In this document: one piece after another, positions 7,069 to 64,000 of the stretch
Position numbering within the stretch: the stretch's first letter is position 1
How the letters are laid out: each line of letters starts with the position of its first letter
From: Gemmatimonadota bacterium
GTDB taxonomy: Bacteria > Gemmatimonadota > Gemmatimonadetes > Palauibacterales > Palauibacteraceae
DNA: 64,000 bases
NCBI GenBank assembly: GCA_046757885.1
Contig: JBHHZD010000006.1
Span: forward strand, 14,914-78,913
Direction of reading: 5' to 3'
Position numbers and translations under genes: made by a program
Notes under the pieces: model-generated
What the model was told of the DNA's origin: nothing
Seen by the model: only the letters and a program-made list of their open reading frames with translations
The model's database searches: none

Positions 7069-7085
7069 GGAAACACCTCCAGTCG
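7066..7085 (-). repeat. 20-nt translation-initiation-region repeat, copy 1 (cgactggaggtgtttccGTG)
   Basis: The reverse complement of 7066..7085 equals cgactggaggtgtttccgtg, identical to 19509..19528; both end in the GTG start of a lipoprotein gene. Confidence 0.6.
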
Positions 7086-7094
7086 GATGCGGGC

Positions 7095-25003: not shown

Positions 25004-25021
25004 CCGAACGTTCCCGGCAGG

Positions 25022-28636: not shown

Positions 28637-28725
28637 GCGACGTAGCCTGCTTCCCTCAGTCAAGGTCACCCCCCGCCACGACGGCCCGTTCGGTTCCGCG
28701 ACATGCTCCGGAGCGGCGACGGAAC

Positions 28726-48100: not shown

Positions 48101-48472
48101 GAGGTTGCAGGCGAAGGGCCCGTTGCAGAACTCGATGGCCCGCTCAAGCTGTCCCCTCTTCAGCGCGAGCTCCAGCTCGCGGGCATCGTAGGAGATCCGC
48201 TGCGCGTCCAGACGCAGCTCCTCGGCCGGACCCGTCACGAAGGCGCCGTCGAGTTGCCCTCTCAGGTCGTAGATGGCCTGACTCAGCGAATGTCTCGCGC
48301 GCTCGGGAGGACTCGTCCAGAGAAGGGCCGCCAGCTCGCTTCGGGTGTGCACCCGGCCGGCGTTCGCCGTCAGGTACAGCAGGAGGGAAAGATGCTTGCG
48401 CGAGCGGAAGCGCACGACCTCCCCCGAGGGGTCCCGGAGTGACACGCCACCGAGGCTCTGGAGATGATACAT
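45164..48472 (-). CDS. SARP/AfsR-like STAND regulator: winged-helix DNA-binding + BTAD + P-loop NTPase + TPR array
   Basis: Start at MYHLQSLGGVSLRD (ATG 48472). OmpR-type wing HLSLLLYLTANAGRVHTRSELAALLW. BTAD helices, Walker A GEGGIGKSRL, Walker B VWVVEDVQWID, long C-terminal TPR region. Stop TAG overlaps the convergent HD-GYP stop in the palindrome CTAG. Confidence 0.8.
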   Translation of the reverse strand: MYHLQSLGGVSLRDPSGEVVRFRSRKHLSLLLYLTANAGRVHTRSELAALLWTSPPERARHSLSQAIYDLRGQLDGAFVTGPAEELRLDAQRISYDARELELALKRGQLERAIEFCNGPFACNLQSTGTDDFERWLEAERVRLQRLSRVTLRRYVEQCDSRGLWGEMCIAAMKLVEIDPLDELAHRALMRGLWLHGDRESALQHFEETDRRLEAELPGGFSSETRALAERIRSTPPARPTGDLDEDAELPLIGREEELEFLRTRARNLGRGGGSTVVVRGEGGIGKSRLVKAFVHSLGVEPVQCLESRCYPAEADIPYGPVVDGLRPVAGRVARELAPGSEAFTRLGHLFPEFDDFLEDEETDAPDPEAWRRRLYEEVADLLKMAATRQPIVWVVEDVQWIDATSASLLHCIARRLAEQPFLLITTFRTVRGDRVNASAPPVAGYVAGGRSETLTLGPLTEDQIASLVLCVRPDAEGTAAVSLAQHLSAGNPFYALEVFRAAVSSAEWAEKARVWALLTNARLSEVFRIRLQGLSDRSLHLLRSIAVLERYATPRNVSSVSNISLGECAALGEDLYARGLIQDDEDRVEFVNDITREYVYGQLTSMQRAALHSAAARLLCAEPDTGFATLARHYRLGGDREKAFDCAIRAAREASEAGGHLEASHMAALAVSTSRTRDETVRALRILADSELSTAQLQSAQEHFDRMLVLDPNMPLEERIAVKLSVVKALVERAEWTLGRQLVDALPLEIGDIQEPRGRLESEMERLHWSLKIAMRQADSALATSNAVTIRRLLSEGREAGTLTAIASVSAACSLAAYYAFFETAEKALEQVEAISSLIKDVPTRLAGRVQLFRGLIQTRRAEWDIAEHEIKVAIDLATKRNDLVELSWLLNNLACCYLEQGKWEEFNSVTKRVEDIQHDVPVTLDVVLPLSINKANALFYQGKSAEAAEQYSKCLAIASSNHSIGFIPELTACVGLTSLQRGDLAAVRNSMSLLDIPDESGGVQERFKVQWFRAYTSLQAQCARSSDRFFEVAEKERLQDTPSYLKLLWIGNSFYGRDNCPPEAANKEALRKSLRETNLLWFVGFFRRWRYAADAKSQGRL

Positions 48473-48587
48473 GTTCCGCCCCGCCGATGGGTCGCGTTGG
48501 ACGCCCGCCCCACACCGACCCCGCACGCATCCAGGGTGCACTCGGGCGTCATCGCAGCATCAACTAACACGTCGAAGGGCGCTTACG

Positions 48588-53125: not shown

Positions 53126-54541
53126 TTAATCCTCGACGTCCATCCAGCGAATCAGGGGCAGCAACTGGGCGCGCCCGTCGTGACGCCAGTCGGGCGGCGG
53201 CCAGGCCATGGTTCCGAGCTCGGCCACGCGACTCACACCCAGCTCCAGGCCCAGTGCCACGACCTCGTCCCATCCCTCGCGGCCCGCCGTGCCGATCGCC
53301 TGAATCCGGCCCTCGAGCGAATCCAGCAGCCCCCGCAGCGTAGAGACATCGGGCACCGGGTGAACTCGCACGACGCGCGGGAGGTCATCGACGGGTGGCT
53401 CCGGCCTCTCGCCCGTGATCACGGTCCAGGAGTACCCGTCCGCGCTTCCCAGCACGGCTCTCCCGCCCGGACTCCCCTCGCCGGCGCTTCCCGCCGACTC
53501 CTCGAACTCGACCTCGGCCCGAAGCGCCCGTATCGCGGTCGCTTCCGCCGCGAGCGGTCGCTCCGGCGCCGTCTCGCACGCGGCGCCCAGCGCGGTGGCC
53601 AGGGTCTCGGCAAACTCGCCGGCGCTCCCGCCGACCACGTACGCCGCCCGGGGCGACACGCAACCCTGTTGGGCGTACGCGAGCACATCCTTCGCCAGGC
53701 GCGCCGCCGCCTCGGGCCGGTCCGCGTCTGGAAGCAGGACCGCGATGCCGACCCGGGGACCGTAGGCGACGACATCAGCGCCGACCCGGGCATCCTCGCG
53801 CACGGCGCGCACCACATCTTCGCCGCCATAGACAATCACTTTACCTGCTAACTTTACCCATTCGCCCCAAGGCTCGCCGCGGGCCGCGCCGGCCCACCAG
53901 GCCGCGGCCACGCAGTCGCCGAGGAGCCGATCCTCGGCCGAGAGGGCCCGTGCGAACAGGACGCCGAGGCCGGGCTCCTCCCGCGGGAGCTTGCAGAGGA
54001 CGCCGGACCGCACCATGAGCCCTCGAATCATGGCCGTGATCGTGACGCCGGGCACGTTGCCGGCGTGGACGAGCAACAGGAGCGGCGGGCCCAGGGCCCG
54101 GCGCCGGCGTCCCGCTCTGCTCGTGCGGACGAATCCGTCGAGCGCGGCCGCGCCGCCCAGCTCCTCGTCGAGGACCCCGGTCAACGCCTCCCGGGTCCAC
54201 GACGCCGACATGCCCTCGAGTGTGGAGGCACAGAGGGACGCCGACCAACCGAGCTCGCGGCCCAGCAGGGAGAGCGCCTCCCTGCCGATGGGGTCGCGTG
54301 GATCCGCGAGGCGGAGGGCGGCCCGGCTCGCCCGGTCCACGACGCTGGCCGTCGACCGGGCTTCTCTGGCCCGGAGGGCCGCGTTCCTGACCGCCCGCGC
54401 CACGTCGCGCGCTGCCTCCGCTTCGAGCCTCGGGCAGCGAAACCCGAACCCGGCTGCCGTACGGCCCTCCAGGAAGCCTTCCGCCGGGCCGCCCCCCGGC
54501 GCCGGTCCCGCGAATCCCGGGAGGTGCCAGAGCTCATCCAT
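53126..54541 (-). CDS. LuxC-like acyl-CoA reductase (aldehyde-forming)
   Basis: 471 aa from ATG 54541 (MDELWHLPGF). ALDH-like fold segments (VHAGNVPGVTITAMIRGLMVRSGVLCKLPREEPGL, catalytic Cys context AQQGCVSPRAAYVV) consistent with the LuxC family. Its start lies 2 nt from the stop of the upstream luxE-like gene. Confidence 0.6.
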   Translation of the reverse strand: MDELWHLPGFAGPAPGGGPAEGFLEGRTAAGFGFRCPRLEAEAARDVARAVRNAALRAREARSTASVVDRASRAALRLADPRDPIGREALSLLGRELGWSASLCASTLEGMSASWTREALTGVLDEELGGAAALDGFVRTSRAGRRRRALGPPLLLLVHAGNVPGVTITAMIRGLMVRSGVLCKLPREEPGLGVLFARALSAEDRLLGDCVAAAWWAGAARGEPWGEWVKLAGKVIVYGGEDVVRAVREDARVGADVVAYGPRVGIAVLLPDADRPEAAARLAKDVLAYAQQGCVSPRAAYVVGGSAGEFAETLATALGAACETAPERPLAAEATAIRALRAEVEFEESAGSAGEGSPGGRAVLGSADGYSWTVITGERPEPPVDDLPRVVRVHPVPDVSTLRGLLDSLEGRIQAIGTAGREGWDEVVALGLELGVSRVAELGTMAWPPPDWRHDGRAQLLPLIRWMDVED

Positions 54542-55673
54542 CGGGCTGGGCGGCCAGAAGCTCCGCCGTGGCGAGCGAACAGCCCCGAGGCCGCGCCCCC
54601 GGCACGCGCCCGACCCACTCCACGATCCCGCCGCGCACGCGCCCCAGGTCCTCAGTGAGCACGTGCGACACGCTTCCCGCGTTCGCGAGATCGAAATGGC
54701 AAAGCACACCCTCCTCGCCCTCGGGCAGCGGAGCGAGCGTCACGGGATCCAGGGCGCGCGTGCGGAGCCACGGGGGACCCGCGAAGCGTGTGGGGCCCGA
54801 ACCCGAAGCGCCCGGGATCGCGTAGCGCTGGGAGCAGAGCTCCGTCATGCCGAACTCGTTGATGACGCCCGAGGGATCGAGACCCAGCCGGTCTCCCATG
54901 CGCTCGACGACGCTCGGCCGGCTCAGGTCCGGCCGACCCTTCGATCCCCCGGTGTCCATGGCCCGTGAGCCGTCTGGAAGCGACACGCGGATCGCGTGGC
55001 GCTCGAGCCACTCCATCCAGGCGTCGAAGCCCAGCGTCGTGGCCAGCAGGCACACCGGCCTGCCTTCAGCGGCAGCGCGCGCCGCGGCTTCCGCTGCCCG
55101 CCTCCACTCCAGCTCGCCCGTGGTGACTGCGTGGATGCTGCCCGGGTCGCCGAACCGCGCGAGCACGGCATCGATCATCCACGCGAGAGATGAATCCTCT
55201 CCGACCTCGAACGGCGGGTGCAGCGCGATCATGCGCGGGGCGGGAAGATCCGGGACCACGAACCGGCGGAACGCCGCCTCGAGCGAGGCCCGGTAAAGCT
55301 CGGGCTCCAGGATCAGGTGCCGGCCACGCCGATCCGTGCCGCGCGTCGTCCCGCTCGTGCGGAAGACGAGCCGGGCGGACCGGGGATCCCCGGCGATCAG
55401 GTCCACGGCCCGGAAGGCGGCCGTGGGCACGGCCGGCACGGCCGTCCAGTCCTGCACCTCCCCGGGGACCACGCCGCGCCTCCGGCAATACGCCCGGTAC
55501 GGCTGCACGTGCTCGAACTGGACCCGAAAAGTCTCCAGGGCCAGCTCCTCGAAGTCGCCGGCCGGCCACTCGGGCTCGGCGACGGATGCCCACGAGCGGA
55601 AGCGCCGCGCGAGCCGCTGGCACAGACGCGCCACGTCGGGCGGCCCGCCGGCCCCGGAAGCGACGGATCTCAT
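54534..55673 (-). CDS. LuxE-like acyl-protein synthetase (adenylate-forming)
   Basis: VFRTSGTTRGTDRRGRH (AMP-binding TSGTT motif), GGSKGR; about 379 aa as in LuxE. Confidence 0.65.
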   Translation of the reverse strand: MRSVASGAGGPPDVARLCQRLARRFRSWASVAEPEWPAGDFEELALETFRVQFEHVQPYRAYCRRRGVVPGEVQDWTAVPAVPTAAFRAVDLIAGDPRSARLVFRTSGTTRGTDRRGRHLILEPELYRASLEAAFRRFVVPDLPAPRMIALHPPFEVGEDSSLAWMIDAVLARFGDPGSIHAVTTGELEWRRAAEAAARAAAEGRPVCLLATTLGFDAWMEWLERHAIRVSLPDGSRAMDTGGSKGRPDLSRPSVVERMGDRLGLDPSGVINEFGMTELCSQRYAIPGASGSGPTRFAGPPWLRTRALDPVTLAPLPEGEEGVLCHFDLANAGSVSHVLTEDLGRVRGGIVEWVGRVPGARPRGCSLATAELLAAQPDG

Positions 55674-55780: not shown

Positions 55781-57022
55781 TCAGGACCCTTCGATCGTGC
55801 CCTCTCGCGTGCGCCCTTTACGAATCCACTTTACGTTCACGCCAGCCCGCCCGTGAAGGATGTCGCGCAGCTGGCGGACGCTGTCGCAGGGCCGGCCGCC
55901 GGCTTCCACGACGACGTCGCCCTCGCGAAGCCCCAGGCGCGCCGCGGGCGTTCCCGGAAGGACCCGAAGCACGAGCAGACCGTCCTTCACGCCGTCGAAG
56001 TAGGAAGCCATCTCCCGACTCAGCGGCTGGAACTCGGCTCCCGCCACGCGGCGATCGTTCTCGACCAGGGACCGCACGATGTACCGGCCCTCAGGCGCGC
56101 GTACGAGCCTCGAGCCTCCCCGCCCACGACTCGGACTTCCGCTCTCCACGAGCCGCCGCGTGAGGGTCTCGAGGCGCTCCGCGTCCAGCCGGAGCCGGCT
56201 GCGCAGACGGAGCAGGGAATCCAGCTCCGCGCGGGCCTGCTCGGCGAGCGAATCGCGGGCGACGCGAAGGCGCCCGGCGAAGGCCGAGTCCGCCCACAGG
56301 TACCCGAACAGACCCGCGACGGCGCCGGCCTCCTCCTCCGCGGTCGGGACGGACGGCTCACCCGATTGCACCTTGTACGAATAGGAGAGAGAGCCATCGG
56401 TGGAGACGGTCGGATCCGAGACCTCGACCCGCACGGCGCCGGTGCTGTCGCCGTGCACGAGAACGAACCCGGTCCGGCGGTCGCCCAGGCTCTTCACGAC
56501 CACGCGAAGGGAATCCAGCTCCTTCGTCGACAGGCTGACGGGCCCCTGCGGCAGTGGGCGCGGCGCCATGCCCCGAATCCGGACCGCGGAGGGAGGTCGG
56601 CCCAAGAGGCGCGCCGCACTCCACCGGAGATCCGCCGTCGGCACGACCTGGATCGAGAGACGGGCGCCGCCGCGTTGCACGGTGAGCGCGACCGACTGAC
56701 CGTCGACGAGCTCGCCCAGGCGCCTTCGTCCGCGAGCCGTCTCGAAGGACAGTCCGTCGATCTCGAGCAGCTCATCTCCGGTCCGGATTCCGGCCTTCTC
56801 GGCGGGACCACCGGGCACAACGGACTGGACCGTGAGGGGAGTCCGGCATGGTCCCTCCACGGAGCACGATTCCTCGAGGAAAACCCCGATCCGCGCCCTC
56901 GGCTCGGGCGCTCGACGCGCCGACGCCTCCTGTGCCCTTGCCGGCCGGCCGGCGCCCGACACCAGGAGGCCGACTCCCAGAGTCAGAGACAGCCACCGCT
57001 GGATGCGCCGCCGAGCCTTCAT
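55781..57022 (-). CDS. secreted tandem-PDZ domain protein
   Basis: Start at MKARRRIQRWLSLTLGVGLLVSGAGRPARAQEA (signal). Two PDZ-like segments (VVPGGPAEKAGIRTGDELLEIDG and VLPGTPAARLGLREGDVVVEAGG). No protease catalytic triad recognised. Confidence 0.65.
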   Translation of the reverse strand: MKARRRIQRWLSLTLGVGLLVSGAGRPARAQEASARRAPEPRARIGVFLEESCSVEGPCRTPLTVQSVVPGGPAEKAGIRTGDELLEIDGLSFETARGRRRLGELVDGQSVALTVQRGGARLSIQVVPTADLRWSAARLLGRPPSAVRIRGMAPRPLPQGPVSLSTKELDSLRVVVKSLGDRRTGFVLVHGDSTGAVRVEVSDPTVSTDGSLSYSYKVQSGEPSVPTAEEEAGAVAGLFGYLWADSAFAGRLRVARDSLAEQARAELDSLLRLRSRLRLDAERLETLTRRLVESGSPSRGRGGSRLVRAPEGRYIVRSLVENDRRVAGAEFQPLSREMASYFDGVKDGLLVLRVLPGTPAARLGLREGDVVVEAGGRPCDSVRQLRDILHGRAGVNVKWIRKGRTREGTIEGS

Positions 57023-57744
57023 CACCTGTACTCCACGGCCGTCGTCTGCAGCATACGGGTCAACCCCTCCGCGAGGCTCTCCCGCTCGTCCATCACGTCG
57101 AACAGGAAGTTGTTCAGGACCGGGTCGGCGGGCGCCTCCTCGAGGGCCCGGCGCGTGAGCTCGGCGAGAACGTCCAGCTTCGCGATCCGCTCCGTCATCG
57201 CCTCCGGACCGGTCAGCGACCCACCGTCCCCGACGGCCCGCTCCCGCAGGTCCGCCAGATCGGCAGCCGTGCGCAGGTAATCCGCCTCCGGCCCCCGACC
57301 GAAGTCGAGCTCCGAGCTCTCCGCCGGGGCGTCCGTCATCTGCGTGACGGCCGCCCGTCCCGCTTCCGCCTCCGCGCCCTGGAATCCGATCGTCCGCCCG
57401 ACCAGCCATCCGCCCGCGAACAGGGTGAGCACCGCGGCCGCCTGCAACGGCCAGCGGCCGAGGACCGGGAACGGCAGGACTCTGTTGCCGGCCCGCCCCC
57501 GATCGTCATCGCCTCGACCAGACGGCGCGGACGCGACGCGCTCCAGGCTCGCCTCGATCTGCTCCCACTGTCCCACCGGCGGCTCGAGGTCGGACAGCGC
57601 CGACAGGGCCATCCGCATGCGGCTCATCTGCTCGTACTCCCGACTGCACGCCGCACACCTAGCCAGGTGCGCCGAGCCGGCCGCCCCTCCGTTCATCTCA
57701 TCCAGCAGCGCCGCGATCTGCTCGCGGCTCAGGTGCTCAGACAT
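57022..57744 (-). CDS. zinc-binding anti-sigma factor (ZAS-type), membrane-anchored
   Basis: Start at MSEHLSREQIAALLDE. H-x3-C-x2-C motif in AHLARCAACSREY. Central TM helix WPLQAAAVLTLFAGGWLVG. Starts 8 nt inside the sigma gene; ends with a 1-nt overlap on the PDZ gene. Confidence 0.65.
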   Translation of the reverse strand: MSEHLSREQIAALLDEMNGGAAGSAHLARCAACSREYEQMSRMRMALSALSDLEPPVGQWEQIEASLERVASAPSGRGDDDRGRAGNRVLPFPVLGRWPLQAAAVLTLFAGGWLVGRTIGFQGAEAEAGRAAVTQMTDAPAESSELDFGRGPEADYLRTAADLADLRERAVGDGGSLTGPEAMTERIAKLDVLAELTRRALEEAPADPVLNNFLFDVMDERESLAEGLTRMLQTTAVEYR

Positions 57745-58306
57745 GATTCCCTGCTTCACTCTCTCCGTACGACGGTGCAAGCATCTCGCGCATGCGCGCA
57801 CGTGCCTTGTGCAGCTGCGACTTCGAGGTGCCGGGCGCGATGCCGAGTCGCTGGCCGATCTCCTCGTGCGTCAGCCCTTCCACGTCGTGCAGCACGAGCA
57901 CTTCCCTGTAGCCCGAGGACAGCTGGTCGAGCGCCTGCCCGATCAGCCGCTGGTTGATGAAGCGGTCGTCCGCGTCCGCCAGCGGCGGCGGGGGCTCGAC
58001 TGTTCGCTCGACCTCGGCCCTGCGGCCGTGGCGGCGGAGGCGATTCAGCGCGACGTTCACCGAGAGCCGGTGCAGCCAGGTTCCGAACGCGGCGTCTCCG
58101 CGGAACAGATGCAGCTTCTCGAACGCCCGGACCCATGCGTCCTGAGACACGTCATCCGCCACGGCATCATCACCCACCATTCGCCGAACCACGGAGTACA
58201 CGCGCGCCGCATGGGCGGTGTAGAGCTCTGCCATGGCCCGACGGTCTCCCGCGCGTGCGCGTGCCACGAGTTCGGCCTCGGTCACGTCTCTCCTCTCATC
58301 GTCCAC
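57737..58306 (-). CDS. ECF (sigma-70 family group 4) RNA polymerase sigma factor
   Basis: Region 2 DDVSQDAWVRAFEKLHLFRG; region 4 YREVLVLHDVEGLTHEEIGQRLGIAPGTSKSQLHKARARMRE. Confidence 0.9.
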   Translation of the reverse strand: MDDERRDVTEAELVARARAGDRRAMAELYTAHAARVYSVVRRMVGDDAVADDVSQDAWVRAFEKLHLFRGDAAFGTWLHRLSVNVALNRLRRHGRRAEVERTVEPPPPLADADDRFINQRLIGQALDQLSSGYREVLVLHDVEGLTHEEIGQRLGIAPGTSKSQLHKARARMREMLAPSYGESEAGNHV

Positions 58307-58309
58307 CGT

Positions 58310-59209
58310 TTAGACCCCGGGGGCGCCGGAGGGGTTGCCCGTGTCCGGCAGGGCCCCGGCGCGGCCGACCAGCGCGGGGGACAGCGCGAGGCTCAGGCCC
58401 GCGATGCCGATTCCCGCCAGGGCGTCGATCCCGTAGTGGAATCGTCCGTACACCGTCCCGAGCACGAGGGTCACGGCGGGAAGGGCGAACCCCACGAGCA
58501 GGACGCGCCGATGCCTCCCCGCCGCGAGCCATGCGGTGACCGCCGCCGCCACGTGCGAGCTCGGAAAGGCGGTCCCTTTCGACGAGCCTCCCTCGAGGAT
58601 GCGATGGACGAGCGCGAAGAAGAACCCGCGAGCCGGGGGTCCCTCAATGGGCGGAAACGCGTACCGGGGTCCCGCGACCGGGAACACGCTGAAGATCAGG
58701 TAGCAGACGAAGAACGCGAGGCCGACCGTGAACGTCCACTCGTGCAGGGCCCGCCGCCCCGCGAGCAAGTACACCCCCAGGGCCGCTCCCGGCACGAGCA
58801 CGTAGTAGGAGGCGTATCCTGCATGCAGGATCTCCGAGATCCACAGGTGAGGCAGCCAGCGGCTCGCGTCCACGCTCAATTGAACGCCGAACAGTGCCTG
58901 CTCCCAGGACTGTACGACCCCATCGAAGTAGCCCGTCACGAGAAGCTGGTTCAGCCACGCGAGCTCCGAGTACAGGAGAGGCGTCGCCGCGACCGGGTAG
59001 GCCAGCCGCAGGAAAGCCAGCCACCGGTGCCCCGGCACGTCCCGGCGTGCGACGGCGAGGATCGCGGCGGTGCCTCCCGCGTGGAGCGCCGCGATGAGCG
59101 CCCCGCGCGAGGAGAACGAGGCGAGCGCCAGAAGACCTGAGAGCCAGAGATACCCGAGGGCGAGGCGGTCTACGGCGAGGAGGCCGCGCGGGCGGCGTCC
59201 GCTGTTCAC
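58310..59209 (-). CDS. PAP2-superfamily membrane phosphatase/phosphotransferase (candidate ceramide phospho-headgroup transferase)
   Basis: Start at GTG 59209 (GTGA overlap with the epimerase stop). 6 TM. PAP2 motifs KGTAFPSSHVAAAV and YGRFHYGIDALAG (C2 SxH and C3 R-x5-H-x3-D). The ORF-track version (to 60118) is over-extended. Confidence 0.7.
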   Translation of the reverse strand: MNSGRRPRGLLAVDRLALGYLWLSGLLALASFSSRGALIAALHAGGTAAILAVARRDVPGHRWLAFLRLAYPVAATPLLYSELAWLNQLLVTGYFDGVVQSWEQALFGVQLSVDASRWLPHLWISEILHAGYASYYVLVPGAALGVYLLAGRRALHEWTFTVGLAFFVCYLIFSVFPVAGPRYAFPPIEGPPARGFFFALVHRILEGGSSKGTAFPSSHVAAAVTAWLAAGRHRRVLLVGFALPAVTLVLGTVYGRFHYGIDALAGIGIAGLSLALSPALVGRAGALPDTGNPSGAPGV

Positions 59210-60216
59210 GCCGGGATCCAGCCCGCCCCGCGATACCACGCGGCCGTTCGGCGCAACCCGTCGGCCAACGATACGTCGGCCCTCCAGCCGAGCCCCCGCT
59301 CCGTGACCGAGACGTCGCACGTCCACTCGTGGCGCGCGAGGTCCGTCGCGCGACGGCGGTCGAACACGGGCCGTATCCCCCGGAGCCGGGCCGCGAGCTC
59401 CGCCACCGCGCCCGCCGATTCGAGGAGGCGCGGGGGCACGCGCAGCACCCGCACGCGTCGGCCGACCGCCGCCCCGAGCTCCCGCGCGACCTCGCTCCAG
59501 TCGTGCACCGACGTGCCCGCGATGTCCCACGGGCCGGGACCGGCGCTTCCCACTGCGCCGATCACGACCGCACGCCCGACGTCCTCGGCATACACGGGCT
59601 GGAGGCGCCCGGGCCCGGCCGGCGCGACCAGGAAGCCGCGGGCCGCCATCCGGAACAGCGGAAGCAGGTCCGCATCCCGCGGCCCGTAGACCCCCGTCGG
59701 CCGCAGGATCACCGGCTCGAACGCGCCGCCCGGCTCTCGCGCGATGCCGAGCAGCCGCTTCTCCGCCTCGCGCTTGCTGCGCCCATAGGCGCTCACCGGC
59801 GCATCTCCGCCAGCCACCGGGTCGACACCCGCCGGGAGGTCCCGGTGGTCGGGGCCCCGGGCGGCGAGACTGCTCACGAGAACGAAGCGCCGGACTCCCG
59901 CGGCCCGGGCCAACCGCGCCAGACGTTCCGTGCCCCCCACGTTCACGGCCTCGTACTCGGCCGGATCGCCGGCCCGCGTGAGACCTGCCGCGTGCACGAC
60001 GGCGCCGATTCCTTCCACGGCGGCGCGGAGCGACGCCTCGTCCGACAGGTCCGCCGGGACGCGCTGCACATCCAGATCCTCGATCCAGGCCAGACGGCTC
60101 GAGGGACGCACCGTGCATCGCACCGCGTGGCCCGCCGCCGCGAGGGCCCGGGTGATGTGGCTGCCTACGAACCCCGTCGCGCCCGTGACGAGCACGGGCT
60201 CAGACCGGACGGTCAT
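59206..60216 (-). CDS. NAD(P)-dependent epimerase/dehydratase-family SDR (candidate ceramide/3-ketosphinganine reductase)
   Basis: Rossmann VLVTGATGFVGSHI; catalytic YGRSK (Y-x3-K). Confidence 0.8.
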   Translation of the reverse strand: MTVRSEPVLVTGATGFVGSHITRALAAAGHAVRCTVRPSSRLAWIEDLDVQRVPADLSDEASLRAAVEGIGAVVHAAGLTRAGDPAEYEAVNVGGTERLARLARAAGVRRFVLVSSLAARGPDHRDLPAGVDPVAGGDAPVSAYGRSKREAEKRLLGIAREPGGAFEPVILRPTGVYGPRDADLLPLFRMAARGFLVAPAGPGRLQPVYAEDVGRAVVIGAVGSAGPGPWDIAGTSVHDWSEVARELGAAVGRRVRVLRVPPRLLESAGAVAELAARLRGIRPVFDRRRATDLARHEWTCDVSVTERGLGWRADVSLADGLRRTAAWYRGAGWIPA

Positions 60217-61339
60217 ACAGGCGGTAGCGCTTGTAGATCTCCGACCCGAGTCTCTCCAGTGGCTTCCGCATCGCGAGGTTGTCCTCGAGGACCCACGAGA
60301 ACTCGCCCTCGCTGATGCGTTTCGCGGCGCCGACCCGGAAGATCCGCAGATACATGAGATTGTCGATCCCCTTCCCCCGATACTCCGGCAACAGCCCCAG
60401 CGTGAGGACGCGCAGCCTGTGGATCCGGTCTCCGCGCGTGAGCCACAGGATCTTCAGCAGGCCGAAGGGGAAGAGGCGGCCGCGCGCCGCCTTGAGCGCG
60501 ATGTTGTAGTCCCGCAGGGAGAGGGAGAATCCGATCGGCACCCCCTCGGCGTTCTCGGCCATGACGACGAGCTCCGGGTCCTTTCGCACGGCCATCTTGA
60601 GCTCGTGGGCCATGAAGTCCAGCTCGGCGTCCGTCATGGGCACGAAGCCCCAGTTTTTCTCCCACGCGGAGTTGTAGATGCGCCGCACGTGCTCCAGCTC
60701 TTCCGTGAACCGGTCGAGGCGGAGGCCCCGCAAGCGGACCCCGAGACGCCGACTCAGTCGCTCCTCGGCCCGGATCAGGAAGTCGGGGATGTCGCTCTCC
60801 AGGAAATAGGCGACGAGCGTCTTCACGGGCTCGAAGCCGGCGCCCCGGAGGAGATCGACGTAATAGGGAGGGTTGTACGGCATCATGATGACGGGTGGGC
60901 GATCGAAGCCTTCCACCAGCAGACCGGCCTGCTCGTTGGTCGAGAAGCTCGTGGGTCCCCGGAGCGTCTCCAGCCCCCTCGGTCGGAGCCAGTCACGCAC
61001 CGCATCGAACAGCCGGCCGGCCACCGCGGAATCGTTCACCGACTCGAAGAGCCCGAAGAACCCGACTGGCTCCTCGTGGAACCGCACGTGGTTGCGGTTG
61101 TGGATCGCCACGATCCGCCCCACGGCACGGTCGTCGCGGAGGGCCAGAAACGGCTGTACATCGGAATGGAGGTGGAACGGGTGACGGGAGGGATCGAGCA
61201 TGTGCCGCTCGTCCGACATGAGGGGAGCAACCCAGTTCGGGTCCCCCGCATAGATCGAGTGCGGGAGCCGGAGGAAGGATCGGAGGAGGCGCCGTCCCTC
61301 GACGGGGACGACGCGGATCTCACCTGAGCCTGTCGTCAC
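60200..61339 (-). CDS. GNAT-fold N-acyltransferase (candidate bacterial ceramide synthase)
   Basis: Start at GTG 61339 (GTGA overlap with the SPT stop). C-terminal GNAT motif A LLPEYRGKGIDNLMY. About 380 aa with a duplicated acyltransferase-like fold. Confidence 0.6.
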   Translation of the reverse strand: MTTGSGEIRVVPVEGRRLLRSFLRLPHSIYAGDPNWVAPLMSDERHMLDPSRHPFHLHSDVQPFLALRDDRAVGRIVAIHNRNHVRFHEEPVGFFGLFESVNDSAVAGRLFDAVRDWLRPRGLETLRGPTSFSTNEQAGLLVEGFDRPPVIMMPYNPPYYVDLLRGAGFEPVKTLVAYFLESDIPDFLIRAEERLSRRLGVRLRGLRLDRFTEELEHVRRIYNSAWEKNWGFVPMTDAELDFMAHELKMAVRKDPELVVMAENAEGVPIGFSLSLRDYNIALKAARGRLFPFGLLKILWLTRGDRIHRLRVLTLGLLPEYRGKGIDNLMYLRIFRVGAAKRISEGEFSWVLEDNLAMRKPLERLGSEIYKRYRLYDRPV

Positions 61340-62517
61340 ACGACCGCGTGCTTCTTGGCGACCTTTTCGATGCACTCGAGCACGAAGTCCAGCTGATCGT
61401 CTGTATGCGTGGCCATGTAGCTCGTGCGCAGCCGACAGCTTCCTTCCGGAACCGCGGGGGGCACGACCGGATTCGTGAACACACCGGCCTCGAACAGCTC
61501 CCGCCACAGGAGGAACGTCTTCTCCATCGGCCCGATGAGAATGGGGACGATGGGCGTCTCCGTCGGCCCGATGTCGAATCCCATACCCTTCAGCGCCTCG
61601 TGCATCTTCTTCGTGTTCGTCCAGAGGCGCTCTCGCCGCTCGGGCTCACTCCGGATGATCTCGAGCGCCTTCAGCACCGTGGCCACGGCTGTCGGTGGCA
61701 TGCTGGCGCTGAAGATGAGGGCCCGGGCGTTGTTCTGCAGGTAGTCGATGACCTCCCGGCGCCCGGCCACGAAGCCGCCGATCGACGCCAGGGACTTGCT
61801 GAACGTTCCCGTGATGAGATCGACCTCCGCGGTCAGGCCGAAGTGCTCGGCCGTCCCGGCGCCCGTAGGCCCGAGCACGCCCAGGGAGTGCGCGTCATCC
61901 ACCATCAGTCCCGCGGCGTGCTTGCCCGCCAGCGACACGAGCCCTGGAAGGTCCGCGATGTCGCCTTCCATGCTGTAGACCCCATCCACCGCCACGAGCT
62001 TTCCGCGGTCGTCCTTGACCGATGCCAGCATGCGATCGAGCGTCTTCAGGTCCCCGTGCCGGAACCGTTGGATCTCGCCGAAGCCGAGCCGCGCCCCGTC
62101 CTGGATGCACGCGTGGTCGAGCTTGTCCAGAAAGACGGTGTCGTTGCGCCCGACGAGGGCGCCGATCGTGCCGAGGTTCGTCTGGTAGCCCGTGCTGAAG
62201 ACGAGCGCCGCTTCCTTGCCGACGAAGTCCGCGAGGTCCGCTTCGAGCCGGTCGTGGAGATCGAGGTTGCCGTTGAGGAACCGGCTCCCCGTGTTGCCGC
62301 TCCCGTACTTGTCGAGCGCCGCCCGCGCCGCCTCCAGGATCCTCGGATCGTGGGTGAGGCCCATGTAGTTGTTCGAGCCCACCATGATCTTCCGGTGGCC
62401 GCCGATGACCACCTCCGTATCGCACGACTGCTCGATGCGCTGGAAATACGGATACAGCCCCTTGGCCCGGAGGTCTCTCGCGGTCGTGAAGTTCTCGCAT
62501 TTGGCGAAAACGTGCAT
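61336..62517 (-). CDS. spt: serine palmitoyltransferase-like alpha-oxoamine synthase (PLP)
   Basis: Start at ATG 62517 (MHVFAKCENFTTARDLRAKGLYPYF) with AAGGAAAA upstream. GSGNTGSRFLNG, FSTGYQTNLG, IQRFRHGDLKTLDRML, VDGVYSMEGDIADL, DDAHSLGVLG, PLP-Lys TGTFSKSLASIGGF. Closer to the Sphingomonas-SPT pattern than to BioF/Kbl. Confidence 0.75.
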   Translation of the reverse strand: MHVFAKCENFTTARDLRAKGLYPYFQRIEQSCDTEVVIGGHRKIMVGSNNYMGLTHDPRILEAARAALDKYGSGNTGSRFLNGNLDLHDRLEADLADFVGKEAALVFSTGYQTNLGTIGALVGRNDTVFLDKLDHACIQDGARLGFGEIQRFRHGDLKTLDRMLASVKDDRGKLVAVDGVYSMEGDIADLPGLVSLAGKHAAGLMVDDAHSLGVLGPTGAGTAEHFGLTAEVDLITGTFSKSLASIGGFVAGRREVIDYLQNNARALIFSASMPPTAVATVLKALEIIRSEPERRERLWTNTKKMHEALKGMGFDIGPTETPIVPILIGPMEKTFLLWRELFEAGVFTNPVVPPAVPEGSCRLRTSYMATHTDDQLDFVLECIEKVAKKHAVV

Positions 62518-62712
62518 GGGCTGCGTTTTCCTTGCTGGTGGGCAGGAACCTTCGGGCAACGGCGGTTCAGCCGGAGAAGCTACCCGGGGCGAGAGGGGGG
62601 GGCAAGCAACGGCGCACGGCGTTGATGGCGCGATGAGGGTACGGTCGTAGCATCGCATCGGACGGTGCGGGTCGTGGACGGTGAACGCCTCTCGGTCGCG
62701 GCGAAATCATCG

Positions 62713-63135
62713 ATGAGCGAGCAGGAACAGGCCACCTGGGTGCAAGCCTCCCTCCGCGCGACGCTGGAAACGCTCGGGGGACTCGTGGAGCTCTCCTTGC
62801 GTGGCCACGCCCTGTCCCTCGCGCCGCTGATGCGAGACTACCTGGATCACGTCGAGCTGTGGGGAGAGCTGCTCGATGCCTCGGCCGCTTCGCCCGGGGG
62901 GCGGACTCAGCCGGGCCCGGTGGCGGGCACGCCCCTTCGTGCGATCGAGGCGGCCGCCTTCGCAGGGCGCCTGGCCGCGGCGATGGCCGGACGGATACGG
63001 GCCACGACCCCGGAACTGCGGCCCGAGGCGCGCCGCATCGCCTTCGCCTGTCTCGCGGACCTGGACAATCACCTGCACTGGGCCGCCGGTCGCCTGAGCG
63101 GATGGACCTGCGGCGAAGACGACGGTTGCCCGTGA
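62713..63135 (+). CDS. hypothetical protein (divergent from spt)
   Basis: ORF MSEQEQATWVQASLRATLETLGGLVELS... (start could also be 62665); no motif; 26 nt upstream of the M23 gene. Confidence 0.3.
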   Translation: MSEQEQATWVQASLRATLETLGGLVELSLRGHALSLAPLMRDYLDHVELWGELLDASAASPGGRTQPGPVAGTPLRAIEAAAFAGRLAAAMAGRIRATTPELRPEARRIAFACLADLDNHLHWAAGRLSGWTCGEDDGCP

Positions 63136-63160
63136 ATCGGCCGGCGCCCATCCTGCGCCC

Positions 63161-64000
63161 ATGGTGCAAGGCACTTCGTCGATACGGGCCCTGACCGTCC
63201 TCCTGGCCGCTCTCGTCGCGGCGTGCGCGACGGGCGGGAGCCCCGAGCCCCACGCCCCGCGGCCCGACCGGGCCGCCGACGATTCCGCGGTCGCGGCTCC
63301 GACGCCGGGAGCCGTCGTGCCGGGGCGGACGGCGTCCGAAGGCGCGGGTGCCCGGGAGGCCGGGCTCGGGCTGCCGGCTGCCTCCAGTGACGGTTCCGGG
63401 AGACGCCCCGCCTGGACGCCACCCCCCGTGCGACTCGGCGTGGAATGGAGCCCGGCCCGGCTCCTGGAAGGCACGGCGGCAGCGGTTCGGCTTCTGCTGC
63501 CAGCCGGCAGGACGGCGCCCACATCCGTGGAAGGTAGGGTCGACGGGCGGGTCGTGCCGTTCGGCGCCGTGGGCCGGGAGCGGGTCGGCTTCGTGCCGCT
63601 TCCTCTGGGGACGTCGGGACCGGACACGCTCCGTATCACCGTGACCTGGGGACCGGCGGAGGTGACCGAGCAGTCCATCGTCCTGGATGTGGCGGGTCGG
63701 GAGTTTCCCTCCACCACGCTGCGCGTCGCGCCGCGGTTCTCCTCGCCGCCGCCGGAGGCCGCCGCCCGCATCGAGGAGGAGCGGATCACGGTGAGGAACC
63801 TCCTTGCGCGCTCCACGCCCGACTGGCTCCCCCGCGGGGCTTTCCAGCCGCCGCGACCGTGGCGGGTCACGAGCCCGTTCGGACAGCGCCGCCTGTTCAA
63901 CGGTGAGCTCCGGAGCCGGCACACGGGCCTGGACCTGGCGGGCCGGGAAGGGGAAGCGGTGCGGGCAGCGGCGCGCGGACGGGTGGCCCTGACGGCCGAT
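63161..64000 (+). CDS. M23-family (LytM-like) peptidase lipoprotein, 3' end outside the window
   Basis: Open frame from ATG 63161 to the window end; not in the ORF track because no stop falls inside the window. Lipobox LLAALVAACA. M23 signature SPFGQRRLFNGELRSRHTGLDLAGREGEAVRAAARGRV (HxGxD). Confidence 0.7.
   Translation, partial: MVQGTSSIRALTVLLAALVAACATGGSPEPHAPRPDRAADDSAVAAPTPGAVVPGRTASEGAGAREAGLGLPAASSDGSGRRPAWTPPPVRLGVEWSPARLLEGTAAAVRLLLPAGRTAPTSVEGRVDGRVVPFGAVGRERVGFVPLPLGTSGPDTLRITVTWGPAEVTEQSIVLDVAGREFPSTTLRVAPRFSSPPPEAAARIEEERITVRNLLARSTPDWLPRGAFQPPRPWRVTSPFGQRRLFNGELRSRHTGLDLAGREGEAVRAAARGRVALTAD

What the first reader, a model, noticed from the sequence alone, without database searches (positions are those of the whole stretch)
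55781..62517. Candidate compact bacterial ceramide/sphingolipid pathway (SPT - GNAT acyltransferase - SDR reductase - PAP2 transferase) in one overlapping operon with an ECF sigma / zinc anti-sigma / PDZ envelope module
Seven minus-strand genes run head-to-tail with GTGA/ATGA-type overlaps or 0-3 nt gaps: spt (61336..62517), GNAT (60200..61339), NAD epimerase-family reductase (59206..60216), PAP2 (58310..59209), ECF sigma (57737..58306), ZAS anti-sigma (57022..57744) and PDZ protein (55781..57022).

The first three families match the published bacterial ceramide route (Spt, GNAT-type bCerS, epimerase-type CerR) described for Caulobacter, where those genes are dispersed together with an ACP and an acyl-ACP synthetase. 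Here they are fused into a minimal unit. A PAP2 enzyme is added that could install a phospho-headgroup (IPC/CPE-synthase-like chemistry). The whole unit appears transcriptionally joined to an envelope-stress sigma module, implying lipid remodelling and the sigma response are co-regulated.

No ACP is present in the operon. The LuxE-like acyl-protein synthetase and LuxC-like acyl-CoA reductase about 2-7 kb downstream (53126..55673) could supply activated acyl chains or aldehydes.
Basis: partly seen in the sequence, partly recalled or inferred. Interest (0 to 1): 0.85.

Follow-up and report, generated by a model that had tools for sequence, protein, structure and literature searches.

The report
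Gemmatimonadota sphingolipid operon beside sigma module
A Gemmatimonadota genome piece carries a tightly packed four-gene operon that most likely makes ceramide and adds a phosphate head group, and the stress-sigma genes right behind it have their own conserved promoter, so this is a new variant of a known bacterial pathway, not a new system.

Summary

**Lipid genes**
- The first three are a bacterial ceramide cassette.
- The alpha-oxoamine synthase scores as Spt: 453 bits to S. multivorum SPT, against 261-298 for Kbl-type enzymes.
- The GNAT is 35% identical over its full length to Caulobacter bCerS (E 9e-72). I recovered that sequence using published cloning primers.
- The SDR is 33% identical to the SDR in the cerR position of a Pseudomonas aasR-cerR-acpR-spt operon.
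- It stays next to the SDR in about 70 metagenomic loci, so a ceramide head-group transferase is the best guess. This is untested.

**Sigma module**
- The claimed seven-gene regulatory unit is only partly supported.
- A conserved ECF-type promoter (GGCAAC-N15-19-GTC..A) sits just upstream of the sigma gene in 58 related loci. In this window it lies inside the last 30 bases of the PAP2 gene.
- spt has its own conserved sigma-70-like promoter and no ECF motif.
- Some relatives have 2.7-4.9 kb inserted between PAP2 and the sigma gene.

**Other points**
- LuxE/LuxC are dispensable neighbours.
- The same three-gene core already sits on a Rubrobacter radiotolerans plasmid.
- Interest is moderate.

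The parts
62577..62605 (-). Putative sigma-70-type promoter of the lipid operon: TTGCCC, 17 nt, TAGCTT, ending 59 nt upstream of the spt ATG
   Evidence: The motif is invariant in the alignment of the window with four relatives. The regex TTGC[CG]-N17-19-TA[GT]nnT matches 32 of 42 distinct spt upstream regions; the other Gemmatimonadota-type regions mostly show near-variants by eye, and three more distant loci (L010-L012) have none. It is a conserved motif only and has not been mapped. The simple consensus scan did not call it.
61336..62517 (-). spt: serine palmitoyltransferase-like alpha-oxoamine synthase, 393 aa, with the PLP-lysine motif TFSKS at residue 238
   Evidence: NCBIfam SerpalmtaseCFB scores 538.7 bits, below its 640 cut-off, against bioF 391.7 and Kbl 372. 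The best PDB matches are SPT 3a2b/8guh at 453 bits, against Kbl-type enzymes at 261-298 and cysteate acyltransferase at 246. It is 41% identical to the Spt of a Pseudomonas aasR-cerR-acpR-spt operon.
60200..61339 (-). bcerS: GNAT-fold bacterial ceramide synthase homologue, 379 aa, whose start overlaps the spt stop (GTGA)
   Evidence: 35% identity over residues 3-377 to Caulobacter vibrioides bCerS (L009:2150-3304), 217 bits, E 9e-72. That gene is delimited by both published ccna_01212 cloning primers. It is adjacent to spt in essentially every locus with enough flank. It is fused to Spt in one 780-aa protein in L010.
59206..60216 (-). cerR-like extended SDR, 336 aa (alternative start GTG 60195), with GATGFVG at residue 12 and YGRSK at residue 144
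   Evidence: Pfam Epimerase and 3Beta_HSD. PDB matches include NDUFA9-type subunits. 33% identity, 122 bits, E 5e-37 to the SDR in the cerR position of the aasR-cerR-acpR-spt operon on Pseudomonas plasmid pPNP1. 55% identity to the SDR of the Rubrobacter spt cluster. It was not compared with Caulobacter CerR itself.
58310..59209 (-). Aur1-like PAP2_3 integral membrane protein, 299 aa; candidate ceramide phospho-head-group transferase with conserved PSSH (H219) and HYGID (H258, D262)
58310..58339 (-). Putative ECF-type autoregulatory promoter GGCAACC-N-GTCTAA, embedded in the last 30 nt of the PAP2 gene; the TAA stop codon is the end of the -10 element
   Evidence: GGGCAACC is invariant in window plus 4 relatives. 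The strict pattern occurs once in the 64-kb window, with 0.06 expected, and once per related locus. The relaxed pattern lies within 150 nt upstream of the sigma gene in 58 loci, including those where the sigma gene is separated from PAP2, and only about 12 further times in about 1.8 Mb. It has not been mapped experimentally.
57737..58285 (-). ECF sigma factor, 182 aa from GTG 58285 (189 aa if from GTG 58306)
   Evidence: Sigma70_r2, r4_2 and ECF models match. The GTGACCGAGGCC start region is conserved and relatives are 182 aa. A transcription start about 7 nt after the -10 element would lie downstream of GTG 58306 (inference).
57022..57744 (-). Membrane-spanning zinc-type (Hx3Cx2C) anti-sigma factor, 240 aa, overlapping the sigma gene by 8 nt
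   Evidence: HLARCAAC at residue 26 and one hydrophobic segment at about 103-121. The Hx3Cx2C motif is present in 44 of 44 distinct homologues. There are weak NCBIfam anti-sigma matches.
55781..57022 (-). Secreted protein with two PDZ domains and no protease domain, 413 aa; its start shares one base with the anti-sigma stop
   Evidence: PDZ_6 and PDZ_2 each match twice; no protease domain was detected by Pfam, and the NCBIfam protease-family matches cover only the PDZ stretches. The N-terminus MKARRRIQRWLSLTLGVGLLVSGAGRPARA-QE looks like a signal peptide. It follows the anti-sigma gene in related loci.

Best explanation
The region holds two adjacent transcription units.

**Unit 1: spt, bcerS, cerR-like SDR and an Aur1-like PAP2_3 gene**
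- It is read from a conserved sigma-70-type promoter, and the genes overlap at their junctions, consistent with translational coupling.
- It encodes a complete route to a phosphosphingolipid.
- Spt condenses serine with an acyl-CoA to give 3-ketosphinganine. No dedicated ACP is needed, because this Spt is of the Bacteroidetes (CFB) type.
- bCerS N-acylates that product. The SDR reduces the 3-keto group to give dihydroceramide. The order of these two steps follows the Caulobacter model, which is itself debated.
- The PAP2_3 enzyme then uses its His-His-Asp centre to move a phospho-alcohol head group from a glycerophospholipid onto the ceramide 1-hydroxyl, releasing diacylglycerol, as Aur1 and BT_1522 do. 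The head group (inositol, ethanolamine or glycerol) is unknown.

**Unit 2: ECF sigma, zinc-type membrane anti-sigma and a secreted two-PDZ protein**
- It is an ordinary autoregulated envelope-signalling module with its own ECF-type promoter.
- In this genome that promoter has been swallowed by the 3' end of the PAP2 gene.
- With no terminator between the units, some read-through from unit 1 into unit 2 is likely.
- The sigma factor shows no sign of driving the lipid genes.

**What is shown and what is inferred**
- Shown: homology, motifs, gene linkage and promoter-motif conservation.
- Inferred: every enzymatic activity, the acyl donor, the head group, the transcript ends and the membrane topology.
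For: **Spt**
- Best match to solved SPTs (453 bits) and to NCBIfam SerpalmtaseCFB (538.7 bits), well above BioF, Kbl, ALAS and cysteate acyltransferase.

**bCerS**
- 35% identity over the full length, E 9e-72, to the primer-defined Caulobacter bcerS.
- An Spt-bCerS fusion protein exists in L010.

**Reductase**
- 33% identity, E 5e-37, to the SDR in the cerR position of an aasR-cerR-acpR-spt operon.
- 55% identity to the SDR of the Rubrobacter spt cluster.
- The GxxGxxG and YxxxK motifs are present.

**PAP2_3**
- Pfam PF14378 match.
- Triad H219/H258/D262 is invariant and spaced exactly as in Aur1.
- It follows the SDR in every related locus with sequence on that side. That includes L010 and five loci that lack spt and bcerS nearby.
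- A bacterial Aur1 homologue, BT_1522, is genetically required for inositol phosphoceramide (PMC9246714).
- In Rubrobacter the fourth position holds a different head-group-type enzyme, an LTA synthase family protein.

**Two units**
- An ECF-type motif lies upstream of the sigma gene in 58 loci and is unique in the window under the strict pattern.
- A sigma-70-like motif lies upstream of spt in 32 of 42 distinct regions.
- There are insertions of 2.7-4.9 kb between PAP2 and the sigma gene in L020, L039 and L041.

**Acyl donor**
- PMC11324152 states that Bacteroidetes Spts use acyl-CoA whereas Rhodobacteria Spts use a dedicated ACP.
Against: - No lipid data exist for this organism, and I found no report of sphingolipids in Gemmatimonadota in the held literature.
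- The Spt score is below NCBIfam's equivalog cut-off (538.7 against 640).
- The SDR was not compared with Caulobacter CerR itself. At a database size of 1e8 (the setting used in PMC11334938), its 122 bits to the syntenic Pseudomonas SDR would give roughly E 6e-27 (my own estimate). That is weaker than that paper's 1e-30 filter.
- The PAP2 protein has no sequence-level match to any solved structure. Foldseek E-values are weak (0.03-0.06).
- No inositol-phosphate synthase or CDP-alcohol transferase gene was found among the window ORFs that were scanned.
- Both promoters are conserved motifs, not mapped transcription starts.
- The sigma module stays next to the lipid block even where both outer flanks have changed. 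This hints at a link that my explanation does not account for.
Confidence: 0.62

Rival explanations
1. One reading: all seven genes form one operon, so sphingolipid synthesis and the envelope-stress sigma response are co-regulated, and the nearby LuxE/LuxC-like enzymes feed acyl chains or aldehydes into the pathway.
For: - The gap between PAP2 and the sigma ORF is only 3-24 nt, and no terminator-like site lies in the region, so read-through is likely in this genome.
- The sigma, anti-sigma and PDZ genes remain directly after PAP2 in loci that have lost the upstream M23/patatin/aconitase genes and the downstream LuxE/LuxC/M1 genes, for example L056, L057, L072-L077.
- LuxE/LuxC follow the module in the closer relatives.
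Against: - A conserved ECF-type promoter lies immediately upstream of the sigma gene in 58 loci. It persists where the sigma gene is kilobases away from PAP2.
- None of about 40 distinct spt upstream regions carries that motif. They carry a sigma-70-like motif instead.
- Opposite-strand genes lie between PAP2 and the sigma gene in L041 and L021.
- The module is absent from L010 and from the SDR-PAP2-only loci.
- LuxE/LuxC are absent in L072-L077 and L084-L093, which keep the lipid block.
- A CFB-type Spt should not need an acyl-protein donor.
Confidence: 0.2
2. The ceramide core is as described, but the PAP2_3 protein is a lipid phosphate phosphatase rather than a head-group transferase. Candidate substrates are ceramide-1-phosphate, sphingoid-base phosphate, phosphatidylglycerol phosphate, undecaprenyl pyrophosphate or lipid A.
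For: - The His-His-Asp mechanism is shared by phosphatases and transferases of this superfamily (PMC13133130).
- An invariant Arg (GPRY, R182) and Lys (K211) could bind a terminal phosphate.
- Source databases name the homologues 'membrane-associated phospholipid phosphatase'.
Against: - The Pfam match is to PAP2_3, not to the general PAP2 model.
- The best fold match by score and by coverage is Aur1: 234 aligned residues, against about 155 for the phosphatases.
- No ceramide kinase-like gene, which would supply a phosphorylated substrate, was found near the block.
- The canonical KxxxxxxRP motif of the phosphatases is not present as such (read directly from the alignment).
Confidence: 0.28
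3. The cassette makes a lipid other than a serine-derived sphingolipid, for example a sulfonolipid of the capnine type (cysteate plus acyl-CoA, reduction, N-acylation), a 1-deoxy (alanine-derived) ceramide or another N-acyl amino lipid.
For: - Cysteate acyltransferase is a homologue of Spt and matches at 246 bits.
- The same three chemistries (condensation, keto reduction, N-acylation) would be needed.
- The Spt score is below the NCBIfam equivalog cut-off.
- 1-Deoxy and sulfono-1-deoxy ceramides exist in nature (PMC11334938).
Against: - The Spt matches true SPTs far better than the cysteate enzyme (453 against 246 bits).
- The GNAT and the SDR match the ceramide-pathway proteins of Caulobacter and Pseudomonas.
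- A head-group transferase acting on the 1-hydroxyl would have no substrate in a 1-deoxy or sulfonate lipid (inference).
Confidence: 0.07

Closest known systems
Caulobacter crescentus ceramide pathway: Spt (CCNA_01220), bCerS (CCNA_01212), CerR (CCNA_01222) (Stankeviciute et al. 2022; Olea-Ozuna et al. 2021; PMC11087976; PMC11324152)
   Same: - The same three enzyme families are present.
- The GNAT is 35% identical over its full length to bCerS.
- The SDR is 33% identical to the cerR-position SDR of a proteobacterial aasR-cerR-acpR-spt operon.
- The Spt is 41% identical to that operon's Spt.
   Different: - In Rhodobacteria, cerS is said always to lie in a different operon from spt and cerR, and Spt uses a dedicated ACP (AcpR) charged by AasR (PMC11324152).
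- Here the three genes overlap in one operon, there is no ACP or acyl-ACP synthetase, and the Spt is of the CFB type.
- Caulobacter decorates ceramide through a kinase-based route (CpgA-C). Here the candidate is a PAP2_3 enzyme.
Uncharacterised spt cluster on Rubrobacter radiotolerans RSPS-4 plasmid 1 (NZ_CP007515.1)
   Same: - It has the same compact order: Spt, bCerS homologue (42% identity, E 7e-92), SDR (55% identity, E 5e-95).
- The first two genes overlap.
   Different: - The fourth gene is an LTA synthase family protein instead of PAP2_3.
- There is no sigma module.
- The host is a Gram-positive actinobacterium and the cluster is plasmid-borne.
Inositol phosphorylceramide synthases: yeast Aur1 (PDB 9ivc) and Bacteroides thetaiotaomicron BT_1522
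   Same: - PAP2_3-type multi-helix membrane protein.
- His-His-Asp triad with identical 39 + 4 residue spacing.
- It is genetically linked to sphingolipid genes.
   Different: - Only about 16-19% identity, and no sequence-level hit.
- No Kei1-like partner was identified.
- BT_1522 sits in an inositol-lipid cluster with MIPS and PIP synthase. No inositol gene was found among the window ORFs scanned here.
- The donor lipid and head group are unknown.
Autoregulated ECF sigma / zinc-binding anti-sigma (ZAS) modules of the RpoE/SigE kind
   Same: - Sigma regions 2 and 4.
- An overlapping anti-sigma gene with Hx3Cx2C and one membrane segment.
- An AAC ... GTC-type promoter upstream of the sigma gene itself. 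The match to the general ECF consensus is from my own knowledge of such promoters.
   Different: - The third gene is a secreted two-PDZ protein without a protease domain.
- In this genome the promoter lies inside the preceding gene's coding sequence.
- The regulon is unknown.

Membership tests
Bacterial serine palmitoyltransferase (Spt) | Scores better against Spt than against the other alpha-oxoamine synthases (BioF, Kbl, ALAS, CqsA, cysteate acyltransferase) | tested here: met
   PDB: SPT 453 bits, Kbl/BioF-type 261-298, cysteate acyltransferase 246, ALAS 205. NCBIfam: Spt CFB model 538.7 against bioF 391.7.
Bacterial serine palmitoyltransferase (Spt) | Reaches the curated NCBIfam equivalog cut-off of one of the three Spt models | tested here: not met
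   CFB 538.7 against a cut-off of 640; BetaP 419.6 against 500; AlphaP 344.9 against 670. The models were named for other phyla, so this lowers the certainty of equivalence but not of family membership.
Bacterial serine palmitoyltransferase (Spt) | PLP-binding lysine in the conserved TFSKS context | tested here: met
   TFSKS at residue 238. It aligns with TFSKS of the Pseudomonas Spt.
Bacterial serine palmitoyltransferase (Spt) | Condenses L-serine with a long-chain acyl thioester | not testable with these tools
   Needs an enzyme assay or lipidomics.
Bacterial ceramide synthase (bCerS, CCNA_01212 family) | Full-length homology to the genetically defined Caulobacter bCerS | tested here: met
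   35% identity, residues 3-377 of 379 against 5-382 of 384, 217 bits, E 9e-72. The reference gene was delimited by both published primers.
Bacterial ceramide synthase (bCerS, CCNA_01212 family) | Genomic association with spt | tested here: met
   It overlaps spt here. It is adjacent in dozens of loci. It is fused to Spt in L010.
Bacterial ceramide synthase (bCerS, CCNA_01212 family) | N-acylates a sphingoid base | not testable with these tools
   Needs biochemistry. The family is very large (8385 representatives at E<1e-3), and some members sit in other contexts.
Ceramide reductase (CerR, CCNA_01222 family) | Homology to Caulobacter CerR itself | not tested
   The sequence could not be obtained. 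The cerR gene lies outside loci L007-L009, and a metagenome scan with the cerR primer found nothing.
Ceramide reductase (CerR, CCNA_01222 family) | Homology to the SDR that occupies the cerR position in a proteobacterial aasR-cerR-acpR-spt operon | tested here: met
   33% identity over residues 8-322, 122 bits, E 5e-37 against Pseudomonas sp. JS425 pPNP1. The operon composition is as described in PMC11324152.
Ceramide reductase (CerR, CCNA_01222 family) | Extended-SDR cofactor and catalytic motifs (GxxGxxG, YxxxK) | tested here: met
   GATGFVG at residue 12 and YGRSK at residue 144.
Aur1-type ceramide phosphotransferase (PAP2_3 / lipid phosphate transferase) | PAP2_3 (PF14378) match above the gathering score | tested here: met
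   64 bits against a cut-off of 27, E 2.1e-17. That Aur1 and Ipt1 belong to PF14378 is from my own knowledge and was not tested here.
Aur1-type ceramide phosphotransferase (PAP2_3 / lipid phosphate transferase) | His (C2) and His-x3-Asp (C3) catalytic triad | tested here: met
   H219, H258 and D262 are invariant in 33 sequences. The 39 + 4 spacing is the same as Aur1 H255/H294/D298. The L010 homologue has HxxxE.
Aur1-type ceramide phosphotransferase (PAP2_3 / lipid phosphate transferase) | Fold closer to IPC synthase than to PAP2 phosphatases | tested here: met
Aur1-type ceramide phosphotransferase (PAP2_3 / lipid phosphate transferase) | Transfers a phospho head group from a glycerophospholipid to ceramide | not testable with these tools
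   Needs an assay. A phosphatase role is not excluded.
Aur1-type ceramide phosphotransferase (PAP2_3 / lipid phosphate transferase) | Inositol-lipid supply genes (MIPS, PIP synthase) nearby, as for BT_1522 | tested here: not met
   None was found among the window ORFs scanned. The rest of the genome is unseen, and the head group need not be inositol.
ECF sigma / ZAS anti-sigma module | Sigma-70 regions 2 and 4 only; an adjacent anti-sigma factor with Hx3Cx2C; an own ECF-type promoter | tested here: met
   Domains. Hx3Cx2C in 44 of 44 homologues. Conserved GGCAAC-N15-19-GTC..A upstream of the sigma gene in 58 loci. Zinc binding and promoter use were not tested.

The most novel reading that the evidence does not exclude
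Gemmatimonadota, a phylum with no reported sphingolipids in the literature I could search, make a phosphosphingolipid with a bacterial Aur1-type transferase encoded inside the ceramide operon. The ECF sigma, zinc anti-sigma and PDZ module held next to it is a dedicated sensor of sphingolipid or outer-membrane state, receiving basal expression by read-through from the lipid operon. That would make the pair a lipid-homeostasis circuit rather than chance neighbours.
Probability: 0.15. Interest if true: 0.65.

Novelty: new variant of a known kind. Interest (0 to 1): 0.42.

Why it matters
- If the four genes work as proposed, they are a minimal, ACP-independent cassette for making a complete phosphosphingolipid.
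- That cassette could be moved into E. coli to produce bacterial sphingolipids.
- The same construct would allow a direct test of the disputed order of the acylation and reduction steps.
- It would also name a head-group transferase for a large group of environmental bacteria. Gemmatimonadota are abundant in soils and sediments, and their envelope lipids are poorly known.
- The Spt-bCerS fusion protein and the persistent SDR-PAP2_3 pair are independent genomic arguments for which enzymes act together.
- The promoter result is a caution. Tight spacing and overlapping stop and start codons do not by themselves show a single regulatory unit.

Tried and rejected
**Leads that went nowhere**
1. The key paper (Stankeviciute et al. 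2022) is not held. I therefore recovered Caulobacter bcerS through cloning primers printed in the supplement of PMC11087976.
2. The cerR gene was not inside the 8-kb loci returned.
3. A metagenome scan with the cerR reverse primer found nothing.
4. I then used plasmid records to find a proteobacterial aasR-cerR-acpR-spt operon as a substitute anchor.
5. Looking up the window's own contig through the exact PAP2 protein failed. One representative, P0262, was also not on record.
6. The afdb50 fold library was not available, so BT_1522 could not be compared directly.
7. Sequence searches of the PAP2 protein and of its 33-sequence profile against solved structures gave no hit even at E 10.
8. The generic promoter/terminator scan found no promoter and only one irrelevant terminator-like site. 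The promoters reported here come from conservation across loci.

**Ideas considered and rejected**
9. A second ECF-like motif at 63103-63130 (minus strand), about 590 nt upstream of spt, is not evidence for sigma control of spt.
   - About 0.85 such hits are expected in the window at the background rate seen in 1.8 Mb of related loci.
   - No relative has a motif there.
10. LuxE/LuxC are not part of the pathway, because they are lost in relatives that keep the lipid block.
11. The window holds no known RNA element: Rfam found nothing.
12. Papers on Gemmatimonadota sphingolipids: none found.

Full report
**Observation**

The window is about 70% G+C. The seven minus-strand ORFs exist exactly as listed. 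Reading the strand confirms the junctions:

- spt / GNAT: GTGA overlap.
- GNAT / SDR: 17-nt overlap, or a 4-nt gap if the SDR starts at GTG 60195.
- SDR / PAP2: GTGA overlap.
- PAP2 stop to the sigma ORF: 3 nt.
- sigma / anti-sigma: 8-nt overlap.
- anti-sigma / PDZ: TGATG overlap.

The organism is a Gemmatimonadota MAG. The PAP2 protein is 100% identical to an NCBI entry of that name on a 91-kb contig. The GNAT's relatives are labelled Gemmatimonadota, Longimicrobiales, Palauibacterales or 'marine benthic group'.

**The ceramide core**

*Spt.* The alpha-oxoamine synthase matches NCBIfam's Bacteroidetes-type Spt model best: 538.7 bits, against bioF 391.7 and Kbl 372. It stays under the 640-bit equivalog cut-off. 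Among solved structures it matches Sphingobacterium SPT at 453 bits. Sphingomonas SPTs score about 318, Kbl-type enzymes 261-298 and cysteate acyltransferase 246. It has the TFSKS lysine motif.

- The defining paper is not held. I took the ccna_01212 cloning primers from the supplement of PMC11087976.
- I scanned the species-representative genomes with the forward primer. The reverse primer lies 1.1 kb downstream in Caulobacter vibrioides DSM 9893.
- The 384-aa product is 35% identical to the window GNAT over residues 3-377 of 379 (217 bits, E 9e-72).

*Reductase.* CerR itself lay outside the fetched loci, and a second primer scan found nothing.
- As a substitute I searched plasmid records with the Spt.
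- Pseudomonas sp. JS425 pPNP1 carries fatty acyl-AMP ligase, an epimerase-family SDR, a phosphopantetheine protein and Spt in a row. That is the aasR-cerR-acpR-spt operon described for Rhodobacteria in PMC11324152.
- The window SDR is 33% identical to that SDR over residues 8-322 (122 bits, E 5e-37).
- It has the GxxGxxG and YxxxK motifs.

So the three-family match to the published pathway (summarised in PMC11087976) is supported. The CerR leg is the weakest.

**How new is the compact arrangement?**

It is not new in kind.
- Rubrobacter radiotolerans plasmid 1 has Spt, a 'hypothetical' protein 42% identical to the window GNAT, and an SDR 55% identical to the window SDR, in the same order.
- It does contrast with the Rhodobacteria rule that cerS always lies in another operon.
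- The missing ACP is expected for a CFB-type Spt, since Bacteroidetes Spts are reported to use acyl-CoA.
- One distant relative (L010) even fuses Spt and bCerS into a single 780-aa protein, flanked by the SDR and a PAP2_3 gene.

**The PAP2 gene**

- It hits PAP2_3, not the general PAP2 model.
- In 33 homologues the motifs GPRY, SSKGTAFPSSH and GRFHYGID are invariant.
- An AlphaFold model built on that alignment is confident (pLDDT 86.4).
- Foldseek also puts two IPC synthases first, though weakly.
- Aur1's catalytic triad is H255, H294 and D298 (PMC13133130). The window protein has H219, H258 and D262, the same 39 + 4 spacing.
- A bacterial Aur1 homologue, BT_1522, is required for inositol phosphoceramide in Bacteroides (PMC9246714).
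- There is no sequence-level match to any solved structure, and a phosphatase role remains possible.

*Linkage.* I scanned metagenomes with the PAP2 alignment (80 loci) and mapped ten window proteins onto all loci with tblastn.
- Wherever flank exists, the order Spt-bCerS-SDR-PAP2 holds.
- The exception is five loci with only SDR-PAP2. In L079 that pair sits beside efp and accB.
- The SDR-PAP2 pair is therefore the most persistent unit.
- In Caulobacter, CerR acts in the periplasm. PAP2 active sites generally face outward (my own knowledge). The pair may therefore be the post-export half of the pathway. This is inference.

**The sigma module**

*Its own promoter.*
- Aligning the PAP2-to-sigma junction of the window with four relatives revealed an invariant GGGCAACC, followed about 17 nt later by GGTCYAA.
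- The strict pattern occurs once in the 64-kb window (0.06 expected) and once in each relative.
- Across all loci, a relaxed form (GGCAAC-N15-19-GTC.A, GTATC.A or CATC.A) lies within 150 nt upstream of the sigma gene in 58 loci.
- It occurs about 12 other times in about 1.8 Mb. Five more hits sit at contig ends just after PAP2.
- It stays with the sigma gene where 2.7-4.9 kb separate the sigma gene from PAP2 (L020, L039, L041). In L041 and L021 the insertion includes opposite-strand genes.
- The motif has the AAC ... GTC shape typical of ECF promoters (my own knowledge), so it is most simply the sigma factor's autoregulatory promoter.

*Position in this window.*
- The motif occupies 58339-58310, inside the PAP2 coding tail. 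GGC AAC CCC encodes Gly-Asn-Pro, and the TAA stop is the end of the -10 element.
- A start about 7 nt downstream would exclude GTG 58306. It favours GTG 58285, which has a GAGAGGAGAG ribosome-binding stretch and yields the 182 aa of relatives.

*The spt promoter.*
- Upstream of spt there is a different conserved motif, TTGCC-N17-18-TAGCTT (or TAGAAT), in 32 of 42 distinct regions.
- There is no ECF-type motif upstream of spt in any relative.
- The one extra ECF-like hit in the window (63130-63103) is at chance level and is not conserved.

*Conclusion on coupling.* There are two promoters and two units, with probable read-through here because no terminator fits or was found. The adjacency is nevertheless durable. 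It survives loss of the upstream M23/patatin/aconitase genes and of the downstream LuxE/LuxC/M1 genes. I cannot rule out a functional tie.

*Other parts of the module.* The anti-sigma factor carries Hx3Cx2C in 44 of 44 homologues and one membrane segment. The PDZ protein has a signal-peptide-like N-terminus and no protease domain.

**LuxE/LuxC**

They are recognisable and conserved in the closer relatives. They lie beyond the sigma module and a 107-nt gap, and they are absent from more distant loci that keep the lipid block. Nothing ties them to the pathway.

**Verdict**

- The biochemical reading of the first three genes is well supported.
- The PAP2 head-group idea is plausible and is the most interesting part.
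- The seven-gene co-regulation idea is weakened by a conserved internal promoter.
- The LuxE/LuxC idea is unsupported.
- I file the locus as a new variant of the known bacterial ceramide gene cluster. The variant features are a fourth, Aur1-like gene, the absence of an ACP, and a phylum without published sphingolipid data in the library I could search.
- Interest is moderate.

Noticed in passing
L010:8001-10343 (protein P0249, 780 aa), with neighbours at 7003-8013 and 10356-11258: A single polypeptide fuses an Spt domain (54% identical to the window Spt) to a bCerS domain (49%). It is flanked by the SDR and a PAP2_3 gene, with no sigma module. The PAP2_3 homologue there has HTAVE (HxxxE) in place of HxxxD.
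   Followed up: partly
L079-L082 and L089 (for example L079:8935-10897): SDR-PAP2_3 pairs (37-38% and 40-46% identity to the window proteins) occur with no Spt or bCerS in the sequence available upstream (up to 10 kb). In L079 they follow efp and a biotin carboxyl carrier gene. The pair seems to travel as a unit independently of the first two pathway genes.
   Followed up: partly
window 58310-58339 (minus strand): The C-terminal tail of the PAP2 protein (...GNPSGAPGV) is translated straight through the ECF-type promoter, and its TAA stop is the last part of the -10 element. The 75%-identical P0122 also ends ...GNPRSASGV. In most relatives the promoter is intergenic, so the ORF appears to have been extended over it.
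   Followed up: partly
L099 (Rubrobacter radiotolerans plasmid 1, NZ_CP007515.1, 14230-19822): A cultured actinobacterium carries Spt, a bCerS homologue annotated 'hypothetical', a CerR-like oxidoreductase and then an LTA synthase family protein. This is the same core with a different candidate head-group enzyme in fourth position.
   Followed up: partly
window 63103-63130 (minus strand): A second match to the relaxed ECF-promoter pattern (GGCAACCGTCGTCTTCGCCGCAGGTCCA) lies about 590 nt upstream of spt. It is at the chance rate and absent from relatives, so I treated it as noise.
   Followed up: yes
window 62665-63135 (+) and about 63146-64000 (+): Between spt and the divergently oriented M23-peptidase homologue (tblastn match at 63422-63991) lies a 156-aa ORF with gene-like codon bias (GC3 0.81) and no Pfam family. 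Most relatives checked have only 88-245 nt here; L001 has about 800 nt.
   Followed up: no
window 43830-48541: A stretch of clearly lower G+C (0.56 at 44-46 kb, against about 0.70 elsewhere) holds a MASE9 plus HD-GYP-like protein and a 1125-aa BTAD/AAA_16/TPR regulator. It may be acquired DNA.
   Followed up: no
window 53126-55673 (minus strand): A LuxE-like and LuxC-like pair, overlapping as ORFs, has no luciferase or LuxD gene nearby. It is conserved after the PDZ gene in the closer relatives only. Its function here is unknown.
   Followed up: partly
L095:94-2338, L013, and P0241 (784 aa): Other members of the very large bCerS-like GNAT family sit in different contexts. One is directly after a GT1 glycosyltransferase (L095). 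One is without spt on a short contig (L013). One is an apparent tandem duplication in a single protein (P0241, two matched stretches).
   Followed up: no
L098 (Priestia megaterium plasmid NZ_CP137804.1, 25090-26304): A Bacillota plasmid encodes a lone Spt-like enzyme 52.7% identical to the window Spt. Its neighbours are an acyltransferase-family gene and a methyltransferase gene, and there is no bCerS or CerR homologue nearby.
   Followed up: no
window 25004-26356 (+) and 26390-29146 (-): An MtrC/MtrF-like multihaem cytochrome and a 918-aa TMEM260-like protein O-mannosyltransferase homologue lie in the window. A TMEM260-like gene also lies near the fused Spt-bCerS locus L010.
   Followed up: no
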